A DNA stretch of 64,000 nucleotides from Bolinopsis microptera (lineage: Eukaryota), in assembly GCF_026151205.1 (NCBI RefSeq), contig NC_087080.1:4874797-4938796 (forward strand), in the 5' to 3' direction. Made by a program: the position numbers and the translations under genes. Of this stretch, positions 7,362-55,037 are shown one piece after another. A model generated the notes under the pieces. The model searched no databases, was not told the DNA's origin, and was given only the letters and a program-made list of their open reading frames with translations. Numbering within the stretch: the first letter of the stretch is position 1; each line of letters starts with the position of its first letter.

Positions 7362-7645
7362 TGGCGTAACAAATGGCCCCTCTGACCCCGCTGTGCGAGG
7401 GGGCGCCATTTTAGGTGGGCGCAAAATCGTCGTTTGAATGTGGGACAATTTTGAAAAACTTAACTGACGTACTAGCAAAACTGCGCGTTTTGTTCTAGAA
7501 ACACACTTTTTTAGAGATTTTACCAGCGTATCCTCTAAAATCACCTTATTAGTTTAATTTTAGGGAGGGGTGTCAAAAGGGGAGGGGTGCCAACAGGGGG
7601 CGCACTTTCGGCGGGGGCGCCAACAGGCAATGTTACACCACTGAC
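7362..7645. mobile_element. Tc1-like MITE, about 284 bp, with CAGTGG(C/T)GTAAC terminal inverted repeats and a G-rich interior
   Basis: cagtggcgtaac at 7362 and gttacaccactg at 7634 are inverted. The internal gcgccaacaggcaatgttacaccactg recurs as a solo terminus at 31185-31211 after a G26 run. Confidence 0.4.
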
Positions 7646-14139: not shown

Positions 14140-15516
14140 ATGAAAGGTGGTGAAAATCATTTGTTGGGACCAACGTCAGACGTCCAATTAGAGACTGTAT
14201 CAGAAACTTCACAGACCTCTCAGGAAATTGTTACTACCCGACCTCAGGAAAGTGTTTCTTCAGATCTGTTGAACTATGCTATCATTTCTAATGGTCAGTG
14301 TTCATCGTGTTCGGATAGTAAAGCAGGAGATAAAGCGTTACCTTGCTGGGAATGCGATAGATTATATCATGCTGTTTGTGTGAAGGAAGATGGTACTGAA
14401 AAAGATGGTAAAGACATAATCTGCCCATCTTCATTCTTTAACAGCTTTATTAAGGCTTCCAACAAAGATGGTGTGTTTGCTAGAAGGCATGGTAACTTTA
14501 CATTTGTGTGTGATTTTTGTAAAGTTAACAAAGGAAAGAAAAAAGCTGCTAATAAATCAGATAAATTTACTCTTTTGGACCACAAAATTGATGCAGTCAA
14601 CAATTCTTTATTGTTGGAGTTAAAAGAGCTAAAAACCATGATATCCCAAAACAAGAGTGCAGCTACACATCAAACTTCATCAATCTCTGAGTCTAACAAC
14701 GAATATAATCCTTGGAATGATAAGCAGAGAACAGAAAACATGAAAAAAGTGGTTTCAGTACAAAAGGACAGTCAAGGTAAACTCATCAGTTCAAAAAAAC
14801 TAGAAAAGATTTGTATTGAGAACGGCCTCTCAGTAAGTAGTACCTTCCACTTGCAGAAATCTGATACTACTGGAATTGTTCTCAATTCTCAACACGATGT
14901 TGATGTTCTGACTAAACAACTCAAAGATGAGCAGCATTCTGTTGTAAAAGTATCAACAAGAGTACCAACTGTCCACATTGTAGGATTATCAAGAGAATAT
15001 ACCGTGGAGGAACTAAAATCTATGCTTGAAAAACAAAATCCTGGGATATCAAAGCTTCTCGATAGTTCTTCTACTTCTAATGATGATAAAATGATCGAAA
15101 TCTTGGCTGTTAAACCTCTCAAAAACAATAAAGACATCTTTAAGGCTATTGTAAAAGTCAGCAATGTTATTAGATCCATAATTGCTCAGCAAGGGAACAA
15201 GGTGTTTATTGGATACCAGTCTATGTGTAAAGTCTATGACAGTATCTTTGTTCTTAGATGTTTCAATTGCCAGGAGTATGGTCATTACAGCAAAGAATGT
15301 AAAAATAAAGCTGATCCAGTTTGTGGGTTTTGCTCTGAAAATCATGAATCACGAGATTGCTTAAAAAAGACTGATGATCATGTTTTCAAGTGTTGTCACT
15401 GTGTCAGAGCAAAAAACAATGATACTAATCATCACACTGGAGACCCCAGATGTTCTGTATTTGTGGAACATCAGAAAAGAATAAAGAAGACAATTCCTTT
15501 TTATCAAAGCAAATGA
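14140..15516 (+). CDS. LINE ORF1 protein (nucleic-acid-binding, three CCHC zinc knuckles)
   Basis: CFNCQEYGHYSKEC, CGFCSENHESRDC, CCHCVRAKNND near the C-terminus. 458-aa ORF. Confidence 0.8.
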   Translation: MKGGENHLLGPTSDVQLETVSETSQTSQEIVTTRPQESVSSDLLNYAIISNGQCSSCSDSKAGDKALPCWECDRLYHAVCVKEDGTEKDGKDIICPSSFFNSFIKASNKDGVFARRHGNFTFVCDFCKVNKGKKKAANKSDKFTLLDHKIDAVNNSLLLELKELKTMISQNKSAATHQTSSISESNNEYNPWNDKQRTENMKKVVSVQKDSQGKLISSKKLEKICIENGLSVSSTFHLQKSDTTGIVLNSQHDVDVLTKQLKDEQHSVVKVSTRVPTVHIVGLSREYTVEELKSMLEKQNPGISKLLDSSSTSNDDKMIEILAVKPLKNNKDIFKAIVKVSNVIRSIIAQQGNKVFIGYQSMCKVYDSIFVLRCFNCQEYGHYSKECKNKADPVCGFCSENHESRDCLKKTDDHVFKCCHCVRAKNNDTNHHTGDPRCSVFVEHQKRIKKTIPFYQSK

Positions 15517-20065: not shown

Positions 20066-20131
20066 AACTTACACTAACTTACACTAACTTACACTAACTT
20101 ACACTAACTTACACTAACTTACACTAACTTA
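20066..20131. repeat. (ACACTAACTT)n, about 6.5 copies, in viperin intron 2
   Basis: Direct visual tandem repeat. Confidence 0.9.
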
Positions 20132-26130: not shown

Positions 26131-26867
26131 TTTAATTTCCGAACTGCTGGATACGATCAATCTGGAAATCTGAATAGTTTCTCTCCGGAGTGAATATCCA
26201 TATGTCGTTTGAGGTGTGCTTTCCGAACTGCTGCGTACGAACAATCTGGACATTTAAATTGTTTCTCTCCGGAGTGAGTATTCATTATATGTGCTTGGAG
26301 GTGTGATTTCAGAGCTCCTGCATACGAACAATCTGAACATCTAAATGGTTTCTCTCCGGAGTGAGTCTTCATATGTATTCTGAGGTATTATTTCTGAGCT
26401 GTTGCATACGAACAATCTGAACATTTAAAAGGTTTTTCTCCGGAGTGAGTCTTCATATGTATTCTGAGGTGTGATTTCAGAGCTGCTGCATACGAACAAT
26501 CTGAACATTTAAAAGGTTTCTCTCCGGAGTGAGTCGTCATATGTACTCTGAGGTGTGATTTCAGAGCTCCTGCATACGAACAATCTGAACATTTAAAAGG
26601 TTTCTCTTTGGAGTGAGTCTTCATATGTACTCTGAGGTGTGATTTCAGAGCTGCTGCATACGAACAATCTGAACATTTAAATGGTTTTTCTCCGGAGTGA
26701 GTCTTCATATGTACTGTGATGTGTGATTTCCGAACTGCTGCATACGAACATTCTGAACATTTAAAAGGTTTCTCTCCAGAGTGAGTCTTCATATGTACTC
26801 TGAGGTGTGATTTCAGAGCTGCTGCATACGAACAATCTGAACATTTAAATGGTTTCTCTCCGGAGTG
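26131..26867 (-). pseudogene. Partial tandem duplicate of the C2H2 zinc-finger array (about 9 fingers, internal frameshift, no N-terminal domain)
   Basis: 84-bp DNA periodicity. 26185-26340 is nearly identical to 28305-28460. The two track ORFs (26157-26372, 26388-27107) are in different frames. Array begins at the same finger position (atttccgaactg) as gene A's 3' end. Confidence 0.55.
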
Positions 26868-27228
26868 TGTCAACAGATGATTTGATTGATTTGAAACTTT
26901 TACAAAATAGCAAGTATACAAATGTACAGCAATTCGAACAAACATATAAAATGGGCCGAAATGTATAAATGCTAAAAAGCGTGGGTCAGTGAAACAAGTA
27001 CAGAGGACAACTTTCAGAACAGGAGTTTTTTGGCCGCCCAAAGTCTCAATAACATCACCTCCACCTAGTAATAAAATTATGAAACGTGAAAAGTGTGAAA
27101 CAATCAAATAATAATGTATTTATATAATATAATTGTCTCTCAAATACAGATAACGTCCGTAAACTCTTAAAATACTCCTACAAGTACATATTATACTGAT
27201 CGGTGTCCGAGAAACATGAATTACGCCA

Positions 27229-28149
27229 TCATGGTGCCTTCTTAACCCGGCTACAGACCTTCCCGTTACGGATGTAGTGGTCGAGATGAGTCTGTTCAGC
27301 CTTCTTCTTCTTCAGGTCAGTTACCACGTTCTTCCTTGCTGCACGCTCTTCACTGGATCTATCAGGACAGATCCATACATCTTTGTGTGCATCAGCCATC
27401 CTCAGTCTCCCTGTTTTCATCAGAATCTGATGAACTGCTGTTGAGCTAGGGACGGTGATCTTGACTGGTCGGATAGCCGTGATACCTGGCCTCTTCCAGC
27501 CGACTCTAGTCGCTTCAAAATGAGGTCTCTCCCCGATCTCCTCCAATACTGCGGTTACCAGAGCTGGAAGCTGTTCTCCATCCTCTTCTTTCAGTCCAAA
27601 CACTATCAGATTCTTGCTCCTGTCCTCCTCTGCAGCCACACTCTTTATTACATTCTTCAGAATTTTACTGTTGCAGACCGCGCCATTTGTGCTGTTCTTT
27701 TGTACAGCGGCACTGTAGCTCTTAATCCCTGTCTCCACCGTTGTTTGTACTGTCTCTTCAACTGACGTCTTAAACAACTGTAGTTGTTCGTCCTTCTGCA
27801 CTAGCAACTGGTCCTGCAACCTGACCATCTTTTCCTTGTCTGCTAGTGCTTCCGTCTTGAGGCACTCAACGATTTCCATCATAGCGCTCATCTGACTACT
27901 CTGCCGTCGTACGAGGTCTGCTGCTTGCATAACCCATTCTGCCATATACCTTTTATAGATAGACGGAGACATGAGTATTTCTTGGTCCATATCTCCACGA
28001 ATTTCGAAGTTTTCTACTTTCAGTTCTCTTGCCATCGAAGTGAACCATCTATCAGCACATCCCTCTACATCTTCCTTTTCTTCATAGTTGAAATCCTTGA
28101 GTTTCTTCTGAGATCGGGTCAAATGTAAATCATCCTCCGTGGTGTACAT
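27229..28149 (-). CDS. L1-type ORF1p-like protein (coiled coil + RRM-like + CTD; Transposase_22-like), no RT downstream
   Basis: MYTTEDDL... coiled-coil region, then NLIVFGLKEEDGE...RPVKITVPSSTAVHQILMKTGRLR...DVWICPDRSSEERAARKNVVTDLKKK resembles the L1 ORF1p RRM/CTD (NLRIIGVPE...RHIIVKFS..ERIL...IRLSADFSAETLQARRE). Real Met at 28149; the upstream part of the track ORF reads through ZF DNA. Confidence 0.55.
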   Translation of the reverse strand: MYTTEDDLHLTRSQKKLKDFNYEEKEDVEGCADRWFTSMARELKVENFEIRGDMDQEILMSPSIYKRYMAEWVMQAADLVRRQSSQMSAMMEIVECLKTEALADKEKMVRLQDQLLVQKDEQLQLFKTSVEETVQTTVETGIKSYSAAVQKNSTNGAVCNSKILKNVIKSVAAEEDRSKNLIVFGLKEEDGEQLPALVTAVLEEIGERPHFEATRVGWKRPGITAIRPVKITVPSSTAVHQILMKTGRLRMADAHKDVWICPDRSSEERAARKNVVTDLKKKKAEQTHLDHYIRNGKVCSRVKKAP

Positions 28150-28222
28150 TGTATAGTAATGTACAAGTATACACACGCAAAGGCTTACTACGCGGTAGCA
28201 GCAAACTGAATTTATCGCAAAG

Positions 28223-29479
28223 TTACAAAAGATGATCTCGAAGACTTGATTTCCGAACTGCTGCATACGAACAATCTGAACATTTAAAAGGTTTCTCTTC
28301 GGAGTGAATATCCATATGTCTTTTGAGGTGTGCTTTCCGAACTGCTGCATACGAACAATCTGGACATTTAAATGGTTTCTCTCCGGAGTGAGTATTCATT
28401 ATATGTGCTTGGAGGTGTGATTTCAGAGCTCCTGCATACGAACAATCTGAACATTTAAAAGGTTTTTCTCCGGAGTGAGTCTTCATATGTATTCTGAGGT
28501 GTGATTTCAGAGCTGCTGCATACGAACAATCTGAACATTTAAAAGGTTTCTCTTCGGAGTGAGTCGTCATATGTACTCTGAGGTGTGAGTTCAGAGCTCC
28601 TGCATACGAACAATCTGAACATTTAAAAGGTTTCTCTTTTGAGTGAGTCTTCATATGTACTGTGATGTGTGATTTCCGAACTGATGCATACGAACAATAT
28701 AGACATGTGAATGGTTTTTCTCCGGAGTGAGTCTTCATATGTACTGTGATGTGTGATTTCCGAACTGCTGCATACGAACATTCTGAACATTTAAAAGGTT
28801 TCTCTTTGGAGTGAGTCTTCATATGTACTGTGATGTGTGATTTCCGAACTGATGCATACGAACAATATAGACATGTGAATGATTTTACCCCAGTTTGAGT
28901 TGTTAAGGGATATTGAAGAGTTGTTTTTCGTGCACTTACATTTGAAGTTGAACAATCAGGAAATTTTAACAGTTTTTCACTAGCAAGAATATTTTCTTGA
29001 GGATTGGGATTCTCCTGAGACATGGTAGAATTGTCCGATATATTACTGATCACTGAAGACCCTGATCCTTTGCTACTATTATCATTCTGAAATTCATCAC
29101 ATCTTGATCTTTTTTGTTTGCCAGAATTATTAACATGATCATTGATATGCTCAATAAAACTGTCCTCCTCTAGAAACTTTTCCCCACAAACTGAGCAGAG
29201 GAAGCCTCCAGCTTCTCCAGTAAATTCGCCCGGCTCCGTTTTAACTTCTGATTTAAGAACATCACATTTGTTTTGAACACAACAACCATCTTGTTCTGTA
29301 ACAGAACCGCTTTCATGAACAGAACCTCTAGTAGATTCACGTAGTAAACTGTTCTTCTCATCTTGTACTTGCAGGTCAGGCTTATAATGACGTTCCCTGA
29401 TATGTTCAAGGAAATACTTTTTGCTTCTCAAATCCTCTTCTTCTGTCTTCACTACTCTTTTTATGTGAGAACATGACAT
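28223..29479 (-). CDS. C2H2 zinc-finger protein (about 170-aa non-finger N-terminus, then about 9 tandem C-x2-C-x12-H-x3-H fingers with SGEKPF linkers); nested antisense in a PARP4-like intron
   Basis: 418-aa ORF. Fingers FKCSDCSYAAALKSHLRVHMKTHSGEKP repeated with 28-aa (84-bp) period. N-terminal region contains one finger-like CSVCGEKF...H..H. Confidence 0.7.
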   Translation of the reverse strand: MSCSHIKRVVKTEEEDLRSKKYFLEHIRERHYKPDLQVQDEKNSLLRESTRGSVHESGSVTEQDGCCVQNKCDVLKSEVKTEPGEFTGEAGGFLCSVCGEKFLEEDSFIEHINDHVNNSGKQKRSRCDEFQNDNSSKGSGSSVISNISDNSTMSQENPNPQENILASEKLLKFPDCSTSNVSARKTTLQYPLTTQTGVKSFTCLYCSYASVRKSHITVHMKTHSKEKPFKCSECSYAAVRKSHITVHMKTHSGEKPFTCLYCSYASVRKSHITVHMKTHSKEKPFKCSDCSYAGALNSHLRVHMTTHSEEKPFKCSDCSYAAALKSHLRIHMKTHSGEKPFKCSDCSYAGALKSHLQAHIMNTHSGEKPFKCPDCSYAAVRKAHLKRHMDIHSEEKPFKCSDCSYAAVRKSSLRDHLL

Positions 29480-30289: not shown

Positions 30290-30600
30290 TCGATACGTAA
30301 GTTACAGTGTTACAGTGTTGCAGTGTTACAGTGTTACAGTGTCACAGTGCTACAGTGTTGCAGTGTTACAGTTTTGCAGTGTTACAGTGTTGCAGTGTTA
30401 CAGTGTTACAGTGTTACAGTGTTACAGTGTTATAGTGTTATAGTGTTATAGTGTTATAGTGTTATAGTGTTACAGTGTTACAGTGTTACATTGTTAAATT
30501 GTTACAGTGTTACAGTGTTACAGTGTTACAGTGTTACAGTGTTACAGTGTTACAGTGTTACAGTGTTACAGTGTTACAGTGTTACAGTATCTTAACAACT
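30290..30600. repeat. 8-bp minisatellite (TGTTACAG)n with variants, about 38 copies
   Basis: gttacagtgttacagtgttgcagtgttatag..., produces artefactual ORFs 30176 and 30475. Confidence 0.95.
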
Positions 30601-31923: not shown

Positions 31924-32302
31924 GTCAGTTTGTTACGTTAAGTATTTATTAATTTATTGTGTTTATTTTAATAAATTTTATACGTTTTTTAAAAATGTAG
32001 ATTAAAATACTCAGTACTCACTCACAGAGTCTGATTTTTCGTTATTCAAGTATTAGTGATATATCTTTAACACCAATACCATGATGGAACTACACTGAGC
32101 ATGCTAATTGATTTAGAGCATGGTAATCGATTTATTTTATATTTCATAAATAAAATATAAAATACAATACAATAACATCATAACATCCGTTTACATTGTA
32201 CAACGATACAACCTCAGATACTACATCCGGTATACAATCTAAACAATGTTGAATGTAACTATGTAAATAAAATATTTGCCCCATTTTATTCTACAATTCC
32301 AG

Positions 32303-35300
32303 GACGCCTCTGACTTCAACATTCAAGAAATCTTTGACGGCTCCTGCGTGTCCCGTCCTAAAGTTGGTCTCCTAGTTGGTGGAAAAGAAGCCTCACTCTC
32401 CGGTTCAATCCATGTTTACAGCGAGCTGACTGATCTAGCAGCACGTGTCACAATTGTACAATCCTACGAGAGTAACGAGAAGTCGGTGAAAGAAGCAAAG
32501 TACCTGTTTCCCATCACAGATAGCTCGGCAGTGTGCGGGTTTGAAGCTTATATTGGTAATAAACATGTGGTGGGAAAGGTTAAGAGAAAGGAGGAAGCAA
32601 GGAGGGAATATAGGAACGCGGTAAAGGCAGGTCATGGAGCGTATCTGATGGAACAAGAGAAACCTGACCTGTTCTCCGTCGCGCTGGGCAATGTGCCAGC
32701 TGGTCCGGTCACTATTCACATCAAGATATTGTACGTGACTGAGCTTGTTATAGAGGATACGGAGATAGTGTTCAGTGTACCCGCTCTGACTCAAGGAGGG
32801 ACTGATAACAAGTTAACTCAGGTCACCACGGATACCACGCTGGTCACGTGTCAGGCCACACCCATCAACTTTCATGCTTCTCTTGCCATGCCTTTTGATA
32901 TTGTCAAGGTTTACTCTCCAGGACGAACTGTGCAGGTGAAGAAAACAGACACCACCTGTTCGGTAAAATGGGAAGGAGTTCTATCTGAGGAGCTTTCTCT
33001 AAGAGTCTCCCTGGCTGAGATCCATCGGCCGAGGATGTGGGTGGAACAAAACGGGAGCAGCGAGGCTGCCATGCTCACATTCTACCCGGATATTCAGTTC
33101 TCTGAGGGTGTTAAGATGATTAGTTTGGTTATTGATTGTTCTCGTAGTTTAGAGGGGTCCTGGGTTGATGTGATCAAGTTAGCGCTGTGTTTCTTGGAGC
33201 GGTTACCAGAGGGGTGTGTCTTCAACGTTTACAAGGTTGGGGCGCTTTTTGTGGAGTTATTTCCCTATCATGCTGTCTCTACCCAGCAAAATAGGGATAT
33301 TGCCAAGGAATTTATTTCTGATCTAAAACCTACCGAGTCATCTGCCAATGTGTACAAGATTCTTAGTGCATACCTTGCCATGAAACCAAAGATCCCGGGA
33401 CAGTTTATGAACAGTTTTATACTAATCAGCGATGGCTTGGTGACAAACCCAAAACTCACCCTGGAAACAGCACGGCAGTTCAACTATTCAGATAGGATAT
33501 TAGCAGCAGCTATCACCACTGGAGGAAATAAACATTTCATGCAAAACCTCGGTCAAGTCTCTGGTGGTTCATTTGAATTGTTTGATGGTAATGCCAAACG
33601 AAAGTGGCCAACCAGCATTGCTAAATTCCTGAAAATCTGTACTGAACCGGGTCTAACAAAAGTTGACTTGAGATGGAAAGTATTTGGTATGAACAGAGAT
33701 GAAATAGAGCAAGCACCAGTGTCAATATCCTCGCTTTTCAACAAAACCAGACAGACAATGTACGGCTTCGTCCCTAACTGCCGTGCTGCAACACTGCTAG
33801 CTTACATTGGGGAACAGGAGCTGGAGACTCTGGTCAGTTGTGCCGATCTAAATGTTACCAAAGGAGACACACTGCACAAACTCACTGCAAATGCCTTGAT
33901 AGAGGATTACTTCAAGGGGAATCTCAGGGAGGATCAGATGGAACACGAGGCTCACTTTAGGAAGAGAAAAGAAGCAATAACTGAACTTTCTATTTCACAT
34001 TCCATACTGTGTCCACTTACCAGCTTCATTGCTGTTGAAGAGAGAGAAGAGGGTGAGGTGAGAGAGGAAACGATTGATATTGAGGAGATACTGGCGACTT
34101 TGAGACAAGATAAACTGGCTTATATGGCTTGGGAAGACCATTCTGATGTTGGGTATCATGAGGATGATATAACGATGATTGAGACACGCGCACGTAATAA
34201 GAAAGTTATTCCGGCACTGAGTAACATCGATAAATACGGATGGGCAAGTTCGGATGTTAAATTACTTCCTTACTTGGCATTTATTGCAGCAGAGGATGGA
34301 AAACATGAGCCTATGTCTTTTCTCCTGTCCGAAACTTTATCGGATATTGCCAGATCTGTGGCTGATACAAGAGGCATCTCTCCCAGCCACATTGTTTTCC
34401 CTGTTAAGGACCAATACAAAACCCTAGCTGAGCTGAATTACCGATCACTTTCAAATATAACTTATCGTGTAAAAGATATCCCTCTCACTGTCACTATAAG
34501 ATCAGACGCTACAGAAACACCTATTATCATCGCATCAAGAGGTTCTGCTACGATCAGAGAAATAAAAGAAAAAATAAATGAGCAACGTCTAGATAACAAA
34601 ATCCCTGTAGAATATCAGCGCCTTCGCTTAACAGGGAAAGACTTGGAAGATGACAGCACTCTAGATGATTACAAAGTGACAGAAGGTTGCACCTTGTCCA
34701 TGGAGAGTAAACTAGGACCATATCGTGGGAATCCAAGTAACGCTAACTTACAAGTCAGTACATTAACTGGTACTGGAACCAAATTCCTCGTAATTGTAAA
34801 CACTGGGTTTTCAGCCTTGCATCTAAAATCAAAAATTGAGTCCATAACTGGAACCCTCGCTTCAGATCAAAGATTAATCTTTGATGGAAGGCAGCTGGAT
34901 GATAACGTACCGTTATTTCACTACGGTATCAAGGAGGGAAGTGTTATATTCCAGGTTCCAACGTTGAGGGGAGGTGGTGGCCCTGTACCATCTAAACAGC
35001 CTGTACAAGCAGGTGGTGGTGCACTTTATGTCAAAACGTTAACCGGCAAAACTGTTACATTGGACTCAGAGAGCAGTATGACGGTAGAGGAATTGAAACA
35101 ATCCATCCAGGACAAAGAAGGGATACCCCCAGATCAACAGAGACTCATCTTTGCAGGAAAACAACTTGAGGATGGGAGGACTCTATCTGATTACAACATA
35201 TCAAAGGAGAGTACCCTGCACCTGGTGTTGAGACTGAGAGGCGGGCCCGGTCCGGAACAGAGTGTACAACAAAAGAGTGTGGGATCTGCAAAATCTCTGC

Positions 35301-36401
35301 TGGTTACTGGTGATATCAGTTCTGTCGAATCAAGTGCAGAGGAAGGAGAGGAGGAGGAGGAGGAGGAGGAGGAGAAGGAGGAGGAGGAGGAAGAGGAGGA
35401 GGAGGAGGAGGAGGAGGAGAAGGAGAAGGAGAGGGAGTCTGGGACAGAGGACTATGAGTCATATCGTGAAATGCTTTGCTATGGTACAGCCTCTGGTACG
35501 TCATTTTCTGGAATCTGTGCTGGATCTGTTGATGCATATGATAACTCATCTGAAACTTATAGTGTAGAGATGAAATTTGCTCGAGAATTGTTTGATAAAA
35601 CTCCTTCCGAAGAAGAAACAGGGTATTCACTGTTTGATGATAATACCAGTTCTTCATCTAATACAGGAACTCTGCCGTTAAAAATGTATTCATGTAGTGA
35701 ATTATCTAGTGATTCATCTAATGAATCATCTAATGAATCATCTAGTGAATCATCTAGTGAATCATCTAGTGAATCATCTAGTGAATCATCTAGTGAATCA
35801 TCTAGTGAATTAGCTTCGTTGATAGAACCTGCTAAACCCTCCTACAAACCTACTTGTTTTGATGTTAAACCTGTCAGTCTTGGTGCAGCTCCAGTGTACA
35901 GGACTGGAGGAGGAGGGGGAAGAGTGAGAGGAGGAGGAGGAGGAGGAGGGAGAGGAGGAGGAATGGGAGGAGTATCGAGTATTAAACGGTTAAGTTGTGA
36001 GATGGATGAAATCAGATGTGATTTAGTTTCGAGACCCGAATTTATGATTTCTGATCGTTTCGATGATGATGATGATGATGATGATGATGTCATGTTTAAT
36101 GATTTTTCGGAAATAAAAGCAAAGAAAAAGATGAAGAAAAAATCTCCTGAGCAGTGCTTTGATTTACTCCTCCTTGATGTCTCCCCACTTTCATTATCAA
36201 TTGAAGACAGCAGTCACGTGAGCATTCCTATAGTGCCCCGAAACTCCAGTATCCCCAACCGGAAATCACTAGACTGTATTACAACCCATGATTATCAAAC
36301 CAGCGTAAAAGTCGCTCTCTACGAAGGGGAACGGAGGAGAGTTAAGGATAATATGTATCTTGGAGAGATTGTGATATCTGACATTCCACCAGATCTGCAA
36401 G
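32303..36401 (+). CDS. PARP4: PARP4-like giant exon: VIT + vWA + 2 ubiquitin-like domains + near-canonical ubiquitin (LRLRGG) + poly-E / (SSE)n / Gly-Arg / poly-D tracts + start of HSP70 substrate-binding domain
   Basis: Continuous 1385-aa ORF. VIT: [53 protein letters not shown] (human PARP4 EAKYIFPLDDKAAVCGFEAFINGKHIVGEIKEKEEAQQEY..GHGAYLM); PRMWVEQNG. vWA: [13 protein letters not shown]. Ub: [77 protein letters not shown]70 part: [33 protein letters not shown]...[33 protein letters not shown]. Acceptor ttccag| at 32302, donor g|gtaggt at 36402. Confidence 0.85.
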
Positions 36402-36650
36402 GTAGGTTTTACCCCTGTTTATCTTTTACCTGATGAGCCATAAATCAAGCTACAAGACAGGGAATACGTTTTCGTAGAGTATCAGAAACTGATTAAGTCT
36501 AGACAATCCTATGTAATGGGTTCTTTAATATGCTTTTATATGAGCTCGTAATTTTTCCATCAACGGCTGTGCTAAAATTATTAACTTAATTAACTGAAAA
36601 TTACTATTACACATTAAGCTTCTTCATCATGATTTTTATTATTAGGGGTC

Positions 36651-44719: not shown

Positions 44720-44886
44720 ATGGGTTTTCTGAAAAAGCTGAAGGAGTCCACAGCAAACAAGAGAGCTTTACTTGTCATTACCGTACTTATATTGGTGCTG
44801 GTGATAGTAGTTATTTCAGTTGTGGTTACCACTGTTGGTAAAACTAAAAGTGAACCATCCTATGGAACACCTTGGGAAAATCCCAG
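44720..44886 (+). CDS. Aminopeptidase N-like (M1 family) exon 1: cytoplasmic tail + signal-anchor TM
   Basis: MGFLKKLKESTANKRALLVITVLILVLVIVVISVVVTTVGKTKSEPSYGTPWENPR. Type II membrane topology as in APN. Donor cccag|gttatt. Confidence 0.7.
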
Positions 44887-45212: not shown

Positions 45213-45303
45213 GTTACGGACGGACGTGAAACCTAAGCATTACAACATTACGCTCCAAATAGACGTGACACATGAGACTTTCTCGGGGAAAGAAACTATC
45301 GAG
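45213..45303 (+). CDS. Aminopeptidase N-like exon 2
   Basis: (R)LRTDVKPKHYNITLQIDVTHETFSGKETIE versus human APN [37 protein letters not shown]. Phases consistent. Confidence 0.7.
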
Positions 45304-45463
45304 GTAGAAATTGTTTTAGATTAAAAGAGCTTATCCATTCACTTTGATGCAGAATTCAAATGAATGAATGAAATTGATCCTTTCTCCCAAAGAAAGAAAG
45401 AATGTCCAGATATTTGGATTGAAGAGGAGTATTAGAGCTGACAGCTTGTAACCGCTACCTCAG

Positions 45464-45651
45464 ATAGACATCACAGCAGCCAACATCTCTACGATAGTAC
45501 TGCACGCCAATAAGATATTGATTCCTCTAGACTCCTCCTACCTGAGATTGTACTACAAGACTGTAGGTTCAGAAGATGAAAAGGAACATGATATAAAGAT
45601 TAAGCGTCATCATCCTTTTACAGAGAACAGCTATTACATCATTTATCTGGA
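45464..45651 (+). CDS. Aminopeptidase N-like exon 3
   Basis: IDITAANISTIVLHANKILIPLDSSYLRLYYKTVGSEDEKEHDIKIKRHHPFTENSYYIIYL(E). Donor ga|gtaaga chosen to keep phase with exon 4. Confidence 0.6.
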
Positions 45652-45777: not shown

Positions 45778-45922
45778 GGAGTATCTAAAGCCGGAGGAAG
45801 GAAACAGTTATTTCCTAGACATAGATTGGAGTGGAGAGTTGAAGTACAAATTATCAGGACTTTATCTTAGCAACTATATTGAGAAGGATGTTGTTAGAAA
45901 AACTGTGTCCTCGCAGTTCCAG
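45778..45922 (+). CDS. Aminopeptidase N-like exon 4
   Basis: EYLKPEEGNSYFLDIDWSGELKYKLSGLYLSNYIEKDVVRKTVSSQFQ versus human ..GFYRSEYMEGNVRKVVATTQMQ. Donor cag|gtaaat is the seed of the downstream minisatellite. Confidence 0.7.
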
Positions 45923-47015
45923 GTAAATATTGGTTTACTAGGTTCCAGGTAAATATTGGTGTACTAGGTTCCAGGTAAATATTGGTGTACTAGGTTCCAG
46001 GTAAATGTTGGTGTACTAGGTTCCAGGTAAATATTGGTGTACTAGGTTCCAGGTAAATGTTGGTGTACTAGGTTCCAGGTAAATATTGGTGTACTAGGTT
46101 CCAGGTAAATATTGGTGTACTAGGTTCCAGGTAAATATTGGTGTACTAGGTTCCAGGTAAATGTTGGCGTACTAGGTTCCAGGTAAATGTTGGTGTACTA
46201 GGTTCCAGGTAAATATTGGTGTACTAGGTTCCAGGTAAATATTGGTGTACTAGGTTCCAGGTAAATGTTGGTGTACTAGGTTCCAGGTAAATGTTGGTGT
46301 ACTAGGTTCCAGGTAAATGTTGGTGTACTAGGTTCCAGGTAAATATTGGTGTACTAGGTTCCAGGTAAATATTGGTGTACTAGGTTCCAGGTAAATATTG
46401 GTGTACTAGGTTCCAGGTAAATGTTGGTGTACTAGGTTCCAGGTAAATGTTGGTGTACTAGGTTCCAGGTAAATATTGGTGTACTAAGTTCCAGGTAAAT
46501 ATTGGTGTACTAGGTTCCAGGTAAATGTTGGTGTACTAGGTTCCAGGTAAATATTGGTGTACTAGGTTCCAGGTAAATGTTGGTGTACTAAGTTCCAGGT
46601 AAATATTGGTGTACTAGGTTCCAGGTAAATGTTGGTGTACTAGGTTCCAGGTAAATATTGGTGTACTAGGTTCCAGGTAAATGTTGGTGTACTAGGTTCC
46701 AGGTAAATATTGGTGTACTAGGTTCCAGGTAAATGTTGGTGTACTAGGTTCCAGGTAAATATTGGTGTACTAGGTTCCAGGTAAATGTTGGTGTACTAGG
46801 TTCCAGGTAAATGTTGGTGTACTAGGTTCCAGGTAAATATTGGTGTACTAGGTTCAAGGTAAATGTTGGTGTACTAGGTTCCAGGTAAATGTTGGTGTAC
46901 TAGGTTCCAGGTAAATGTTGGTGTACTAGGTTCCAGGTAAATGTTGGTGTACTAGGTTCCAGGTAAATGTTGGTGTACTAGGTTCCAGGTAAATGTTGGT
47001 GTACTAGCTTACTAG
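45917..47015. repeat. 26-bp minisatellite (GTAAATATTGGTGTACTAGGTTCCAG)n, about 42 copies, in APN intron 4
   Basis: Each unit contains ttccag|gtaaat, a copy of the exon 4 / intron 4 boundary. a/g variants at position 6 (gtaaatattgg versus gtaaatgttgg). Confidence 0.95.
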
Positions 47016-47138
47016 GTTCGTCCGTTTTGGTAAAAGAGACAACATTTAATAATATGCCATCGTTTAATAAAATATGTGGTCAAAAATTGTAAAGTATTGA
47101 GGAAGATATCATCTTTTTATATTGGAAAACTATTTCAG

Positions 47139-49466
47139 CCCGTATCAGCACGAGAGGCATTTCCTTGTTTTGACGAACCCGAATTCAAAGCAACCTTCGA
47201 CATGACTATAATTGCTGAGAAAAACTACTCCTTCGTTACCTGGAACACAGAACAGATCGGAGATACGATTACAAAAACAAAAGGCGGAAGAGACTGGCAA
47301 ACACTGAAGTTTGCGAGATCCCCCATCATGTCCACTTATGTGATGGCATTCGTCGTTGCTAATTATAACTGTGAAGAAAAGACTACTCAAAGTAACCTTG
47401 GTGACAAAAAGAATATTTTGCTGAGGGTATGTGGACGACCCTCCCTGATAAACAATGGTTATGCCACATATGCTTTGGAAACAGGGGAAACGATTTTGAA
47501 ATATTTTGAAACTTATTTCAATCAGCCTTATCCGCTGAGCAAATGTGATCATGTGGGGATATCGGACTTTGAGGCTGGAGCCATGGAGAACTGGGGACTC
47601 ATTATCTATCGAGAAGAATACCTTTTGTTCAACCCGGAAAACGATCCAACTAAGTCGAAGGGGCAGGTGAATTTAGTGGTGAGCCATGAGTTAGCACATA
47701 TGTGGTTCGGGAACTTGGTCACGATGGAGTGGTGGAACGACATTTGGCTGAATGAGGGGTTTGCAACCTACGTTCAGAGTCTAGGTACGGAGGACAGTAC
47801 GGATTATGTTAACGACCCGTTCTTGATGAATGAGTGGCGCGTCACCTCGATGTCTCAGGATAGCTACCTTTCCTCTCGTCCTGCCTCGGTCATTGTCACG
47901 GATCCGGGAAATGTGCACCATCTCTTTGATGCCATAGCGTACAACAAGGGGGCTTCTCTTCTCCGTCAAATGAACATGGTGATGGATGATACGGCAGGTG
48001 ACAACGAGAAAGATACAAGCTTCCAGGACGGAGTGAAGGAATATCTTGTTGAGAACAAATATTCCAACGCGGATCAATCCCAGCTGTACGGGACGCTCGA
48101 CAAGTTCTTTACATCCAAATCTGTTCCAAAAGTAACCGTGGAACAGATCATGAAAACCTGGACTCTTCAGATGAACTTCCCAGTGGTGACTGTCGAACAG
48201 TATGACAATGACAACCTGATTCTGTCTCAAAGAAGGTTTCTGATAGCAGATGAAGGCCAGAGCGAGGGATCCCAAACATCACCCTACGCTTACCAATGGT
48301 ATGTTCCGATCAAGTATAAGACTCACATAGAAAATGCTGTAGAGCCAGAACTTTCTAGTTTGAAGTGGATCCGTCCGAATGGACACCTTGTCACGCCAAT
48401 TGCTGCAGAAGAGAGCATTTTTGTAAATTGGGACGGGAATGGATTTTACGTGACATCGTACAGCTTGAAATTGTGGAAGAAGCTATTGACAGATCGCACT
48501 TCACTGAAGCTAAGTTCTCGAGAGATGCAAGTGCTGTTGTACGACACGTACCTGCTAGTAAATGCAGGTTACTACCCCTTATCCCGGCAACTAGAACTGC
48601 TCGGAATATTCGCAGCAAACGAGGATTACAATGTGTTGAGGGAGGCGTTCCGGCAGATTGGCATGATTTCAAGTCTTATAAAGATGGAGGAAGGTTTACT
48701 CGAGACTTGGAAAGGGAAATGGAAAGATGCATCGGCAGTACAGTACAATAAGGCTAACGCTTTAAAGAATGATGTTGAATCTGATGGTGAAAGTGAAGTA
48801 GATTATGTTAAACAATTAAGGAAGAGTTTGACTATGGATCTATGTTTGACGTATAATGATAACACAGATGTTGACGTTCTGTGTGTGAAGGCAGCTAAAA
48901 AGATTTGGGAAGAACGACACGGAGAAACTACGAAAATAGGACCCGATGATAAGGCGCCTGTTTACAGCTACGCTGCGAGGGCTTCCAGTGAGGATTGGGA
49001 TGCACTTTGGAAAATGTATGTTGATCCTTTATCAACAGCGGCGGAGAAGAAGCTGCTCGCCACAGCTATGGCTCAAACAGAGGATATAGAAACCGTTAAA
49101 AAGTACATTAGTTACTGCATGAACGATACCATAGTAAGGAAATCCAACGGGCTCTCCATCATGGGCCGGTACATTGCCACAGCTAACAGAGTCAGTGCCA
49201 CAGTCTCCCTGGACTACATGCTTAAAAACTGGCCGGCTGTCTACGAGCACTTCCAGACGTTAGGATTGGAATGTCCCAAATACATCAAGACAGTGATATC
49301 TCAGATAACGTCTGCGGAGGATCTGCAGAAGGTGAAGGATAAGTTTGAGGACCCAGAGACGGGCTACATGAATGATGTGATAAAGGCTGATTATGAGTCT
49401 GCGATGGACACTGCTAGGAACAACATTCAGTGGTTGGAGAAGAACAAAGATTCTCTAAATAAATAG
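47139..49466 (+). CDS. Aminopeptidase N-like exon 5 (about 775 aa): M1 peptidase catalytic domain and ERAP1-like C-terminal domain; stop TAG
   Basis: GAMENWGL exopeptidase motif. Zinc-binding HELAHMWFGNLVTMEWWNDIWLNEGFA (HExxH-18-E). Acceptor tatttcag|ccc joins QFQ|PVSAREAFPCFDEPEFKA (human ..[22 protein letters not shown]). Confidence 0.85.
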   Translation, partial: PVSAREAFPCFDEPEFKATFDMTIIAEKNYSFVTWNTEQIGDTITKTKGGRDWQTLKFARSPIMSTYVMAFVVANYNCEEKTTQSNLGDKKNILLRVCGRPSLINNGYATYALETGETILKYFETYFNQPYPLSKCDHVGISDFEAGAMENWGLIIYREEYLLFNPENDPTKSKGQVNLVVSHELAHMWFGNLVTMEWWNDIWLNEGFATYVQSLGTEDSTDYVNDPFLMNEWRVTSMSQDSYLSSRPASVIVTDPGNVHHLFDAIAYNKGASLLRQMNMVMDDTAGDNEKDTSFQDGVKEYLVENKYSNADQSQLYGTLDKFFTSKSVPKVTVEQIMKTWTLQMNFPVVTVEQYDNDNLILSQRRFLIADEGQSEGSQTSPYAYQWYVPIKYKTHIENAVEPELSSLKWIRPNGHLVTPIAAEESIFVNWDGNGFYVTSYSLKLWKKLLTDRTSLKLSSREMQVLLYDTYLLVNAGYYPLSRQLELLGIFAANEDYNVLREAFRQIGMISSLIKMEEGLLETWKGKWKDASAVQYNKANALKNDVESDGESEVDYVKQLRKSLTMDLCLTYNDNTDVDVLCVKAAKKIWEERHGETTKIGPDDKAPVYSYAARASSEDWDALWKMYVDPLSTAAEKKLLATAMAQTEDIETVKKYISYCMNDTIVRKSNGLSIMGRYIATANRVSATVSLDYMLKNWPAVYEHFQTLGLECPKYIKTVISQITSAEDLQKVKDKFEDPETGYMNDVIKADYESAMDTARNNIQWLEKNKDSLNK

Positions 49467-49952: not shown

Positions 49953-51005
49953 TTAAGCACTCAGAGTCTGCGACTGAACAAACAATCTCCCAGCTAGAGA
50001 ACAACTGTCAGTTGAACGTCCCTTACTGAAATTGTTCTGGAGTTCTTTGAATAATATTTTCTTGAAATCTGAGCTTCTTGCAACTTTGATGATTGGGTTG
50101 AGGACAGAAGTAACAAGAGAACACACAAGACCATTGCCATAGAAAAAATAATTGGCGTGGTATGGAAATCCATGTCTGACAAAGATAGAGTAGACGAACT
50201 GTACGATCACCAGAACAACTGCTACCTGGATACCAGCTGCCAGCATGATGATCGTGATACAACTGTGCACCCTTTCTAAACAGTTCGTAGACTTCTTTTT
50301 GTAACCAATCAGTTTCATCTGGTTGATTGATTTGTAAACCTCCTTCCCTGTTATAACCGCGCAAACACACCCAGCAACAGCAATGGACATCAGAATCCCT
50401 CCAAACGCAAGCTCAGGCCAATTATTGATTTTACCAGTTTCAGTGTCGAACAAGACAAGTTTGAGGCGGTTTGTACTGTAGAGGAATCTATCCCACGTCG
50501 TATTGTAGTAGAAGTTGATACCAACAATAACCAGAGCCAGGGAAATGAATCCGAGCATGGGGAACAGAACTGAGTACCTCTTGTGCATCACTTTCAGAGG
50601 ATATTTAATAGCATAGACCCTGGCTGCAGTCATGAGAGTGGTGATACTAACACTAAGAAAGAGGATAAAGGCAAACACAGCTGAGTAAAATCTCTGACCT
50701 AGAGAGGCAGGTACTTGATGTGGCATTAGTGTTGGAGTCAGGAGTCCATAAGCCAGGTAGGGTATCAAGCAGGTTGTTGTTAAGAAGTCTATAGCATTGA
50801 GCATCTTGAAGATGAGAGCAGGAACTGTTGCTGGACGTGTACAGTGGAACCAGAATAATGCAGGGTTCAGCACCCCTGAGACTATGAAAGCGAGTATTAT
50901 TATTACCGCGAAGAAGTAGTTGATCGGACCGTCATATCTGATGTCGCCCAGTATCTGGAGGGTTTCGTTGTTGTCTCCAATCACTTTATCATCACCAAAT
51001 ATCAT
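49953..51005 (-). CDS. Seven-transmembrane GPCR-like protein, single exon, divergent (no DRY; NPIIK in TM7)
   Basis: 350-aa ORF with seven hydrophobic helices (FFAVIIILAFIVSGVL; ALIFKMLNAIDFLTTTCLIPYLAYG; FYSAVFAFILFLSVSITTLMTAARVYAI; VLFPMLGFISLALVIVGINFYY; LAFGGILMSIAVAGCVCAVITG; CITIIMLAAGIQVAVVLVIVQFVYS; FFYGNGLVCSLVTSVLNPIIKV). Confidence 0.65.
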   Translation of the reverse strand: MIFGDDKVIGDNNETLQILGDIRYDGPINYFFAVIIILAFIVSGVLNPALFWFHCTRPATVPALIFKMLNAIDFLTTTCLIPYLAYGLLTPTLMPHQVPASLGQRFYSAVFAFILFLSVSITTLMTAARVYAIKYPLKVMHKRYSVLFPMLGFISLALVIVGINFYYNTTWDRFLYSTNRLKLVLFDTETGKINNWPELAFGGILMSIAVAGCVCAVITGKEVYKSINQMKLIGYKKKSTNCLERVHSCITIIMLAAGIQVAVVLVIVQFVYSIFVRHGFPYHANYFFYGNGLVCSLVTSVLNPIIKVARSSDFKKILFKELQNNFSKGRSTDSCSLAGRLFVQSQTLSA

Positions 51006-53390: not shown

Positions 53391-53458
53391 CCCCTGATTT
53401 ACCGTGGAGTTTGGGAGAAAAGAATTGAGCACAAGCATGCTATATCAGCACTCGCTAG

Positions 53459-53750
53459 TCCCGGAGATATGTCCCGGAGGTATGTCCAGGAGATATGTCC
53501 CGGAGATATATCCCGGAGATATTACCCGGAGATATGTCCCAGAGATATGTTCCGGAGATATGTCCCAGAGACATGTTCCGGAGACATGTTCCGGAGATAT
53601 GTCCCAGAGATATGTCCCGGAGATATGTCCCGGTGATATGTCCCGGAGATATGTCCCGGAGATAAGTCCCGGAGATATGTCCCGGAGATATGTCCCGGAG
53701 ATATGTCCCGGAGATATGCCCGGAGATATGTCCCGGAGATCCACACCTTA
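53459..53750. repeat. 13-bp minisatellite (CCCGGAGATATGT)n, about 22 copies, with GGAGACATGTT variants
   Basis: Direct visual. Generates overlapping artefact ORFs 53370-53757 on both strands. Confidence 0.95.
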
Positions 53751-54062: not shown

Positions 54063-54160
54063 ATCGCTCGGATGACACCTGTAACATGGTTAATTTACAG
54101 GGAGAGCTATTCTTAGTTCTACCTAGCAGTAAACAAAGGGAGCCCAACTCTGGGTTATAA

Positions 54161-55037
54161 GTAAGAACTAACTACTCACAGTTAGAAGTTACATACTATA
54201 GTAAGAACTAACTACTCACAGTTAGAAGTTACATACTATAGTAAGAACTAACTACTCACAGTTAGAAGTTACATACTATAGTAAGAACTAACTACTCACA
54301 GTTAGAAGTTACATACTATAGTAAGAACTAACTACTCACAGTTAGAAGTTACATACTATAGTAAGAACTAACTACTCACAGTTAGAAGTTACATACTATA
54401 GTAAGAACTAACTACTCACAGTTAGAAGTTACCTACTATGGTAAGAACTAACTACTCACAGTTAGAAGTTACATACTATAGTAAGAACTAACTACTCACA
54501 GTTAGAAGTTACATACTATAGTAAGAACTAACTACTCACAGTTAGAAGTTACATACTATAGTAAGAACTAACTACTCACAGTTAGAAGTTACATACTATA
54601 GTAAGAACTAACTACTCACAGTTAGAAGTTACATACTATAGTAAGAACTAACTACTCACAGTTAGAAGTTACATACTATAGTAAGAACTAACTACTCACA
54701 GTTAGAAGTTACATACTATAGTAAGAACTAACTACTCACAGTTAGAAGTTACATACTATAGTAAGAACTAACTACTCACAGTTAGAAGTTACATACTATA
54801 GTAAGAACTAACTACTCACAGTTAGAAGTTACATACTATAGTAAGAACTAACTACTCACAGTTAGAAGTTACATACTATAGTAAGAACTAACTACTCACA
54901 GTTAGAAGTTACATACTATAGTAAGAACTAACTACTCACAGTTAGAAGTTACATACTATAGTAAGAACTAACTACTCACAGTTAGAAGTTACATACTATA
55001 GTAAGAACTAACTACTCACAGTTAGAAGTTACATACT
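54161..55037. repeat. 40-bp tandem array (GTAAGAACTAACTACTCACAGTTAGAAGTTACATACTATA)n, about 22 essentially identical copies
   Basis: Only one variant copy (acctactatg at 54431). Unit is internally quasi-palindromic (aactaac...gttagaagtt). Confidence 0.95.

What the first reader, a model, noticed from the sequence alone, without database searches (positions are those of the whole stretch)
45917..47015. A minisatellite made of about 42 copies of the exon-4 splice donor inside the aminopeptidase-N-like gene
The 26-bp unit GTAAATATTGGTGTACTAGGTTCCAG begins exactly at the exon 4 / intron 4 boundary (..CAGTTCCAG|GTAAATATTGG). Every unit therefore carries a consensus-quality 5' splice site (CAG|GTAAAT), giving about 42 tandem cryptic donors over 1.1 kb directly upstream of the 2.3-kb catalytic exon. 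Use of a downstream copy would insert multiples of 26 nt, which shifts frame except at 3 copies (78 nt), so this could drive alternative splicing or nonsense-mediated decay, or simply be a replication-slippage curiosity seeded by the donor.
Basis: seen in the sequence. Interest (0 to 1): 0.6.

Follow-up and report, generated by a model that had tools for sequence, protein, structure and literature searches.

The report
Splice-donor minisatellite in ctenophore aminopeptidase intron
A 26-base stretch spanning an exon end and its splice donor has been copied 42 times in a row inside a comb-jelly aminopeptidase gene; this kind of repeat is already known from several human genes and is probably harmless, though Mnemiopsis independently grew a different repeat at the same splice site.

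Summary
Window 45916-47007 holds 42.0 head-to-tail copies of a 26-bp unit (96% match, no indels). The unit is the last 7 nt of coding exon 4 plus the first 19 nt of intron 4 of a five-exon, 972-aa M1 aminopeptidase gene. There are 42 donor motifs (41 CAG|GTAAAT, one AAG|GTAAAT). Only the first gives an open frame.

The window is from a ctenophore. Four contigs of the sister taxon, two of them long-read, have one copy of the donor region and a 139-145 nt intron. The array is therefore a 1.07-kb lineage-specific expansion, seeded between GTTC microhomologies.

This type of repeat is known in human F7, IFI6, CBS, LMNB2 and PDGFA, where the most upstream donor dominates.

The unexpected part is that the Mnemiopsis leidyi ortholog carries an independent 41-bp x 24 array across the same junction, while its two nearest relatives have none. 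Rough chance estimates are 1-6%.

No RNA data could be reached, so donor usage is inferred. Verdict: a new member of a known kind, of moderate interest.

The parts
44720..44886 (+). Coding exon 1 of the M1 aminopeptidase gene (start ATG, signal-anchor TM segment, ...PWENPR); donor CAG|GTTATT
   Evidence: Manual model giving an uninterrupted 972-codon ORF; tblastn of this protein finds the same exon in L001, L003, L004, L086 and L087
45213..45303 (+). Coding exon 2; donor GAG|GTAGAA
45464..45651 (+). Coding exon 3; acceptor ...taaccgctacctcag|, donor GGA|GTAAGA
45778..45922 (+). Coding exon 4, ending ...VSSQFQ (CAGTTCCAG); phase-0 boundary
   Evidence: 88% aa identity to exon 4 in L002; dN/dS 0.12 against L002
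45920..45928 (+). Authentic (most upstream) 5' splice site CAG|GTAAAT, cleavage 45922|45923. It is the only donor that keeps the reading frame open into exon 5
   Evidence: k=0 gives 972 aa; every k>=1 gives a stop at aa 207 or 228; the junction peptide is conserved in Mnemiopsis models P0002 and P0152
45916..47007 (+). Junction-spanning minisatellite: 42.0 copies of GTTCCAG|GTAAAT(A/G)TTGGTGTACTAG (7 nt exon + 19 nt intron). It holds 41 downstream pseudo-donors at 45948+26k, the last at 46988|46989
47008..47015 (+). 8-nt imperfect partial copy (CTTACTAG) at the 3' edge of the array
   Evidence: it aligns as an insertion relative to L002 and L005
47016..47138 (+). Ancestral, single-copy tail of intron 4. 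It begins with GTTC (47016-47019, the microhomology partner of exon GTTC 45916-45919) and ends with the acceptor ...ctatttcag|
   Evidence: Aligns along its length to intron 4 of L002 and L005, 73% identity to L002
45923..47138 (+). Intron 4 as a whole, 1216 nt, against 139-145 nt in the sister taxon
47139..49466 (+). Coding exon 5 (2328 nt including the stop): rest of the N domain, the catalytic domain (GAMEN, HELAH-X18-E) and the ERAP1_C domain
   Evidence: dN/dS 0.18 against L002

Best explanation
This is a young, lineage-specific minisatellite whose first unit spans the exon 4 / intron 4 boundary of a functional ctenophore M1 aminopeptidase gene.

Origin. A 26-bp segment (the last 7 nt of the exon plus the first 19 nt of a ~140-nt ancestral intron) lay between two GTTC microhomologies. 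It was duplicated by slippage and then amplified to 42 copies by further slippage or unequal exchange. This lengthened the intron to 1216 nt and reiterated the gene's best donor (CAG|GTAAAT) 41 more times.

Splicing (inferred). The most upstream donor (45922|45923) is the one used, and the whole array is removed as part of intron 4. The downstream copies are silent or rarely used pseudo-donors. Any mRNA made from them carries a premature stop and would be unproductive.

The array is best seen as a tolerated by-product of a minisatellite-rich genome, not a device.

Shown here: the array, its register, the gene model, the single-copy ancestral state, purifying selection on both flanking exons, and the coding consequences of each donor. 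Inferred: the slippage origin, first-donor usage and NMD.
For: 1. Array and register.
2. Gene model and M1 identity.
3. Only the first donor keeps the ORF open.
4. Four contigs of the sister taxon (91% nt identity in exon 5) have one copy of cagttccag|gtaaatgttggtgta..ttcgtcc and an intron of 139-145 nt. Two of them are long-read contigs, so this is not a collapsed repeat. The rest of the intron aligns to the window's tail.
5. GTTC...GTTC lie 23 nt apart in the single-copy relatives and flank the unit in the window.
6. dN/dS is 0.18 for exon 5 and 0.12 for exon 4 against L002, with dS about 0.29-0.33. The units differ by one dimorphic site and six singleton variants, so the array is young or homogenised and the gene has been under constraint.
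7. The unit occurs nowhere else in the window and is made of local sequence, so it is not a dispersed element.
8. The window is 14% tandem arrays (19 arrays). The same gene carries other small intronic arrays in relatives, one of them with 9 versus 13 copies in two 98%-identical contigs, so array birth and length change are routine here.
9. Donor positions are not better conserved between units than other positions (Fisher p=0.36 in the window, 1.0 in Mnemiopsis).
10. The array RNA has no excess secondary structure (z = -0.57 and +1.31).
11. Precedent: in human F7, LMNB2 and PDGFA only the most upstream donor of such arrays is used; in IFI6 and CBS the authentic donor plus two more are used (PMC1557585).
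12. Both available Mnemiopsis gene models join the first donor of the analogous array to exon 5.
Against: No transcript evidence was reachable for either species, so donor usage is an analogy from mammals, which use exon definition.

From my own knowledge of in-vitro work on duplicated strong 5' splice sites (Reed & Maniatis 1986; Eperon et al. 1993), the donor nearest the acceptor can win. Here the last pseudo-donor sits 150 nt from the acceptor and so recreates the ancestral intron geometry.

A second, independent array across the orthologous donor in Mnemiopsis is somewhat unlikely under random placement (rough estimates 1-6%). That hints at a site-specific cause or at selection.

The dN/dS values average over the whole time since the split and say little about the period since the array arose.
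Confidence: 0.72

Rival explanations
1. Tunable unproductive splicing. A meaningful fraction of transcripts use one of the 41 downstream donors. All such mRNAs carry a premature stop (a 206- or 227-residue product) and are degraded by NMD, so array length sets the aminopeptidase dose.
For: All 42 donors are identical from -7 to +6, and the motif is the best match to MAG|GTRAGT among the gene's four donors. Every downstream donor gives a premature stop. In human IFI6 and CBS two pseudo-donors are used besides the authentic one (PMC1557585).
Against: There are no RNA data. Donor motifs are not preferentially conserved between units. Four sister-taxon contigs do without the array. In F7, LMNB2 and PDGFA the pseudo-sites are silent.
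Confidence: 0.12
2. The exon-4 donor of this gene is a predisposed or selected site. Arrays of U1-binding donors arose convergently in two ctenophore lineages because they do something useful, or because the conserved sequence around ...TCTCAGTTCCAG|GTAAA is a slippage hotspot. Possible functions are a U1 recruitment platform, stepwise (recursive-type) removal of the intron through the AG|GT at every unit boundary, or intron lengthening.
For: Mnemiopsis has 24 copies of a 41-bp unit (17 nt exon + 24 nt intron) across the orthologous junction, with different unit length and boundaries. Its closest relatives L003 and L004 have none. Rough chance estimates are 0.4-0.6% per lineage under uniform placement, and P about 0.06 for two or more donor-spanning arrays among the four seen in this gene, before requiring the same intron. 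Each Mnemiopsis unit reads TTTTGTTTGATTTGTTTCTGTCTTCTCAGTTCCAG|GTAAAG. From my own knowledge that resembles a recursive splice site (pyrimidine tract, then AG|GTAAG). Removing any whole number of units between an in-register GT and AG regenerates the canonical junction, which follows directly from the sequence.
Against: There are only two cases, found post hoc. Introns here are short and arrays frequent, so an intronic array touches a splice site often (about 8-18% per array). The microhomologies used differ (GTTC versus TGTCTYC). The window unit has a poor pyrimidine tract. Five related contigs lack any array at this junction. There is no donor-specific conservation.
Confidence: 0.09
3. The array disables the gene. 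Splicing uses the acceptor-proximal donor (46988|46989) or fails, so the locus is a recently inactivated gene whose ORF has not yet decayed.
For: The last pseudo-donor plus the tail reproduces the ancestral 140-150 nt intron. The proximity preference for strong duplicated donors is from my own knowledge. The array looks young.
Against: The 972-codon ORF is intact, with all catalytic motifs. dN/dS is 0.12-0.18. Mnemiopsis keeps an intact, annotated gene with a similar array. In human precedents the genes function normally.
Confidence: 0.04
4. Assembly artefact. The array, or its copy number, was produced by mis-assembly of a shorter repeat.
For: Long perfect arrays are hard to size, and only one assembly is available.
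Against: The aperiodic A/G pattern, the six singleton variants and the distinct first and last units are not what a polishing or looping artefact gives. A comparable array is present in an independent chromosome-level Mnemiopsis assembly.
Confidence: 0.03

Closest known systems
Human F7 intron 7 37-bp VNTR (Borensztajn et al. 2006, PLoS Genet, PMC1557585)
   Same: It is a minisatellite whose first monomer spans the exon-intron boundary (4 nt exon + 33 nt intron). The authentic donor is followed by identical pseudo-donors, and the array lies in a protease-family gene's intron.
   Different: F7 has 5-9 copies against 42 here. The F7 donor is weak (UGG|gugggu), while here it is close to consensus. 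For F7, exclusive use of the first donor and a 5'-to-3' scanning rule were shown experimentally and copy-number polymorphism is documented. Neither could be tested here.
Human IFI6 (6-16) intron 2 minisatellite (Turri et al. 1995, as cited in PMC1557585)
   Same: A many-copy array gives 26 donors in a row, the closest in scale to 42.
   Different: In IFI6 the authentic donor and the next two are used constitutively and give protein isoforms. Here every downstream donor gives a premature stop. I could not read the primary paper.
Human CBS intron 13 31-bp VNTR; LMNB2 100-bp and PDGFA 81-bp junction-reiterating repeats (as cited in PMC1557585)
   Same: The exon/intron junction is reiterated 10-20 times. 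Either only the authentic donor is used (LMNB2, PDGFA) or the authentic donor plus two more (CBS).
   Different: These are vertebrate genes, mostly with longer units. No independent expansion at an orthologous junction in another lineage is mentioned in that paper for them.
Mnemiopsis leidyi ortholog, intron 4 array (L001 7644-8630; GCA_048537945.1 CM108487.1)
   Same: Same gene and same junction (...VSSQFQ|), with the same AGG|TAA stop logic. It is a tandem array with 95% match.
   Different: The unit is 41 bp (17 nt exon + 24 nt intron) in 24 copies, bounded by TGTCTYC microhomology, and contains a strong pyrimidine tract. It arose separately, because L003 and L004 (80% aa identity to Mnemiopsis) have no array.
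Recursive splice sites / ratchet points (Drosophila and vertebrate long introns; from my own knowledge)
   Same: Every unit boundary reads AG|GTAAA, juxtaposing a possible 3' splice site and a regenerated 5' splice site.
   Different: Recursive sites lie in very long introns and have a strong pyrimidine tract. The window unit has none (GGTGTACTAGGTTCCAG) and the units are only 26 nt apart. I do not claim membership.

Membership tests
Junction-spanning minisatellite reiterating a 5' splice site (F7 IVS7 / IFI6 / CBS / LMNB2 / PDGFA type) | Head-to-tail tandem array with a minisatellite-size unit (about 10-100 bp) | tested here: met
   Period 26, 42.0 copies, 96% match, no indels
Junction-spanning minisatellite reiterating a 5' splice site (F7 IVS7 / IFI6 / CBS / LMNB2 / PDGFA type) | The first monomer contains the end of the exon and the start of the intron | tested here: met
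   The repetition starts at 45916, 7 nt inside exon 4. The exon end is fixed by the conserved junction SSQFQ|PVSAREAF
Junction-spanning minisatellite reiterating a 5' splice site (F7 IVS7 / IFI6 / CBS / LMNB2 / PDGFA type) | The authentic donor is followed by pseudo-donors of identical sequence | tested here: met
   41 CAGGTAAAT and 1 AAGGTAAAT
Junction-spanning minisatellite reiterating a 5' splice site (F7 IVS7 / IFI6 / CBS / LMNB2 / PDGFA type) | The most upstream donor(s) are the ones used in vivo | not testable with these tools
   No transcript data were found. Protein searches returned no transcript-derived fragments. The only support is indirect: the frame is open only from the first donor, and both Mnemiopsis gene models use the first donor
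Junction-spanning minisatellite reiterating a 5' splice site (F7 IVS7 / IFI6 / CBS / LMNB2 / PDGFA type) | Copy number varies between individuals (VNTR) | not testable with these tools
   Only one assembly of this species is available. A different 10-bp array in the sister taxon's intron 2 has 9 versus 13 copies in two 98%-identical contigs
M1 zinc aminopeptidase (aminopeptidase N / ERAP-like) | Peptidase_M1_N, Peptidase_M1 and ERAP1_C domains above the Pfam cut-offs | tested here: met
   136, 215 and 142 bits against cut-offs of 25.8, 27.7 and 38.2
M1 zinc aminopeptidase (aminopeptidase N / ERAP-like) | GAMEN exopeptidase motif and HEXXH-X18-E zinc-binding motif | tested here: met
   FEAGAMENWG and [24 protein letters not shown] in exon 5
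Recursive splice site (ratchet point) | A strong pyrimidine tract immediately upstream of AG|GTAAGT, within a very long intron | tested here: not met
   The window unit upstream of AG|GT is GGTGTACTAGGTTCCAG and the intron is 1.2 kb. The Mnemiopsis unit does have the pyrimidine tract

The most novel reading that the evidence does not exclude
The exon-4 donor of this ctenophore aminopeptidase gene is a convergently expanded site. Arrays of 24-42 identical U1-binding donors arose independently in two lineages because they are useful, for example as a length-tunable unproductive-splicing rheostat. Alternatively, they are a self-similar array trimmed stepwise through the AG|GT at every unit boundary. 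In either case 5' splice-site choice among them follows a rule specific to short-intron, non-bilaterian animals.
Probability: 0.1. Interest if true: 0.65.

Novelty: new member of a known kind. Interest (0 to 1): 0.36.

Why it matters
On its own the array is an ordinary product of a minisatellite-rich genome and belongs to a class described in human genes since the 1980s-90s.

Its value is as a natural experiment. It presents 42 identical, near-consensus donors in front of one acceptor, in an early-branching animal with short introns. An independent 24-donor counterpart sits at the same junction in Mnemiopsis, for which I recall (not checked here) that public RNA-seq exists. Counting which donor is used would show whether the 'most upstream donor wins' scanning rule inferred from human F7 also holds outside vertebrates, or whether proximity to the acceptor decides.

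For genome annotation it is a warning case. A gene finder or aligner can place the junction at any of 42 equivalent positions, and only one keeps the frame.

Tried and rejected
1. Transcript evidence. A profile search with the N-terminal 222 aa (window + Mnemiopsis) and a single-sequence search with the Mnemiopsis junction region returned no transcript-derived fragments. They did not even return the known Mnemiopsis protein, so their recall was poor and the absence means nothing.
2. The JGI metagenome scan found one relative (L006, 89%), but it lacks intron 4.
3. RNA structure masking the downstream donors: rejected, because the folding energies are no better than shuffles.
4. Dispersed repeat or transposon origin: rejected. 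The unit is found only in the array and is local sequence.
5. Known RNA family in or near the intron: only a sub-threshold SNORD24 match (24 bits against a gathering score of 41, E=0.61), taken as chance.
6. Coding potential of the array on either strand: no ORF of 40 aa or more overlaps 45953-47075.
7. Selection on donor motifs within units: not detectable.
8. An old array shared with Mnemiopsis: rejected as the simplest reading, because unit length, register and flanking microhomology all differ and both nearest-relative groups are single-copy. Loss by contraction to one unit cannot be formally excluded.
9. Other arrays in the window sitting on splice sites: I inspected their flanks, but without gene models this was inconclusive.
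10. The primary IFI6 paper could not be read.
11. A ctenophore + minisatellite literature search found nothing relevant.

Full report
**1. The observation**

Window 45916-47007 is a clean tandem array: period 26, 42.0 copies, 96% matches, no indels. Read from the intron start there are 41 complete units from 45923 and a 19-nt partial unit at 46989, followed by an 8-nt partial copy, CTTACTAG.

Two unit variants dominate. They differ at one site: GTAAAT[A/G]TTGGTGTACTAGGTTCCAG, with A in 17 units and G in 19. Their order is aperiodic, and there are six singleton variants.

The unit, allowing up to three mismatches, occurs 41 times. All copies are in the array, none elsewhere in the 64 kb on either strand, and none are expected from shuffles. 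No ORF of 40 aa or more overlaps the array in any frame.

**2. The gene**

Five + strand exons give an uninterrupted 972-codon ORF: 44720-44886, 45213-45303, 45464-45651, 45778-45922 and 47139-49466.

- The protein has Peptidase_M1_N, Peptidase_M1 and ERAP1_C domains.
- It has a GAMEN motif and HELAH-X18-E.
- It has an N-terminal membrane anchor.
- The best named relative is a Mnemiopsis leidyi protein (64% identity over the full length). Other animals are near 30%.

Gene order is also shared with ctenophore contigs: a VIT-VWA-ubiquitin-HSP70 gene, then the aminopeptidase, then a 350-aa ORF on the opposite strand. The window therefore comes from a ctenophore. I did not identify the species.

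The exon 4 / exon 5 junction reads SSQFQ|PVSAREAFPCFDEP. That peptide is contiguous in two Mnemiopsis gene models and lies inside one unbroken Pfam match.

The repetition itself begins 7 nt inside the exon, at GTTCCAG.

**3. Coding consequences**

There are 42 donor motifs: 41 CAG|GTAAAT and one AAG|GTAAAT. CAG|GTAAAT is also the best match to MAG|GTRAGT among the gene's four donors.

- Only the first donor keeps the frame.
- One retained unit shifts the frame and gives a stop at residue 228.
- Two or more retained units carry an in-frame TAA, formed across the unit boundary (AGG TAA), at residue 207.

**4. Origin**

Four contigs represent the sister taxon (L002, L005, L086, L087). They are 98% identical to each other and 91% identical to the window in exon 5. 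All carry one copy of the region, cagttccag|gtaaatgttggtgta(t/a)(g/t)ttcgtccgttttg, and an intron 4 of 139-145 nt. Two of them are long-read contigs, so this is not a collapsed repeat.

The window's intron tail (47016-47138) aligns to their intron along its length, at 73% identity to L002. The array is therefore a 1.07-kb insertion specific to the window's lineage.

In the single-copy relatives GTTC occurs twice, 23 nt apart: in the exon end (GTTCCAG) and in the intron (GTTCGTCC). In the window the 26-bp unit lies exactly between these two GTTC. This is the signature of a microhomology-mediated first duplication followed by expansion (inference).

Both flanking exons have been under purifying selection since the split. 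dN/dS is 0.18 for exon 5 and 0.12 for exon 4, with dS about 0.29-0.33. The units are nearly identical, so the array is young or continually homogenised.

**5. Genomic background**

The window is 14% tandem arrays: 19 arrays, some coding, such as the 84-bp zinc-finger periodicity.

The same gene carries other intronic arrays in relatives:

- a 25-bp x 4 array inside Mnemiopsis intron 3;
- a 10-bp array (GTAACCACTW) at the 3' end of intron 2 in L086 and L087. It ends 6 nt before the acceptor AG and has 9 versus 13 copies.

Array birth and length change are routine in these genomes. Because the introns are short, an intronic array often touches a splice site.

**6. The unexpected finding**

The Mnemiopsis ortholog (L001, chromosome-level assembly) has its own array across the same junction. 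It spans 7644-8630, with period 41, 24.1 copies and 95% match. The unit is TGTCTTCTCAGTTCCAG|GTAAAGTTTTGTTTGATTTGTTTC, that is 17 nt of exon plus 24 nt of intron, bounded by TGTCTTC / TGTCTCC.

Its nearest relatives, L003 and L004, are 80% identical to Mnemiopsis and 86% to each other. They have an intron 4 of about 250 nt with no array.

The relationships are thus (window, sister taxon) and (Mnemiopsis, (L003, L004)), with arrays only in the window and in Mnemiopsis. The unit length, register and microhomology all differ, which points to two independent expansions.

Rough chance estimates:

- 0.4-0.6% per lineage if arrays fall uniformly;
- P about 0.06 for two or more donor-spanning arrays among the four arrays seen in this gene, before also requiring the same intron.

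This is suggestive, but it was found post hoc and is not decisive.

**7. Tests for function**

None of these tests gave support for a function.

- Donor positions are no better conserved among units than other positions (Fisher p=0.36 and 1.0).
- The array RNA has no excess structure.
- No Rfam family reaches its threshold.

Because each unit ends with the exon's last bases (...CAG), removing any whole number of units between an in-register GT and AG regenerates the canonical junction. Stepwise trimming is therefore possible on paper. The Mnemiopsis unit even has a good pyrimidine tract before AG|GTAAAG, but the window unit does not. This remains an idea only.

**8. What is known**

Borensztajn et al. 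2006 (PMC1557585) describe exactly this class: minisatellites whose first monomer spans an exon-intron boundary. Their examples:

| Gene and intron | Unit | Copies | Donor use |
|---|---|---|---|
| F7 intron 7 | 37 bp | 5-9 | only the most upstream donor; 5'-to-3' scanning shown with 50 constructs |
| IFI6 intron 2 | not given in the cited paper | authentic donor plus 25 pseudo-sites | authentic donor plus two pseudo-sites |
| CBS intron 13 | 31 bp | 15-20 | authentic donor plus two pseudo-sites |
| LMNB2 | 100 bp | 10-15 | authentic donor only |
| PDGFA intron 4 | 81 bp | 16-18 | authentic donor only |

The window array meets the three structural criteria of this class. Donor usage and copy-number polymorphism could not be tested. 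I found no report on ctenophores.

**9. Verdict**

This is a real, correctly described junction-spanning minisatellite. It is most likely a tolerated slippage product in which the first donor is used and the 41 others are pseudo-sites whose use would be unproductive (confidence about 0.7).

It is a new member of a known kind. The independent array at the orthologous donor in Mnemiopsis, and the sheer number of identical donors, make it a convenient natural test of 5' splice-site choice outside vertebrates. That is where its moderate interest lies.

Noticed in passing
L001 7644-8630 (Mnemiopsis leidyi CM108487.1): An independent 41-bp x 24 tandem array spans the orthologous exon 4 donor of the same aminopeptidase gene. 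Each unit has a long pyrimidine tract followed by CAG|GTAAAG.
   Followed up: yes
L086 4275-4364; L087 4289-4418 (window equivalent, single copy, about 45446-45463): A 10-bp minisatellite (GTAACCACTW) lies at the 3' end of intron 2 of the sister taxon's gene and ends 6 nt before the acceptor AG of exon 3. It has 9 copies in one contig and 13 in the other; the two contigs are 98% identical.
   Followed up: partly
window 54160-55037: A 40-bp unit is repeated 22 times at 99% identity. The reverse strand of the unit contains GTGAGT. Its relation to any gene is unknown.
   Followed up: no
window 4284-6032: A 405-bp unit is repeated 4.3 times at 99% identity, with an internal 21-bp sub-repeat.
   Followed up: no
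window 773-2983: A 2.2-kb TCC/TCCTCAG-rich low-complexity tract has a 342-bp higher-order period. A 212-aa ORF (751-1389, + strand) runs into it.
   Followed up: no
window 32276-36433 (+): A single 1385-aa ORF combines VIT, VWA, three ubiquitin repeats and an HSP70 fragment. A gene with the same domain set lies upstream of the aminopeptidase in L003, so the architecture and the synteny are conserved among ctenophores.
   Followed up: partly
window 14140-18365 (+) and 9932-11431 (+): A LINE-like retrotransposon has a gag-like ORF (PHD and CCHC zinc knuckle) followed by a 971-aa endonuclease-reverse transcriptase ORF. A second, weaker reverse-transcriptase fragment lies upstream.
   Followed up: partly
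window 26135-29479 (-): The two 84-bp tandem arrays are the 28-residue periodicity of C2H2 zinc-finger coding sequence. The Pfam zf-C2H2 families are strongly matched for 28226-29479.
   Followed up: partly
window 49953-51005 (-): A 350-aa single-exon ORF with several hydrophobic segments has no Pfam match. It is conserved in position and strand downstream of the aminopeptidase in L002, L086, L087, L003, L004 and L001.
   Followed up: partly
window 30301-30588; 53458-53740; 20066-20131: Further short-unit arrays: GTTACAGT x36, GTCCCGGAGATAT x22, and AACTTACACT x6.6 (the reverse strand of this last unit reads GTAAGT). I did not establish whether any of them sits at a splice site.
   Followed up: no
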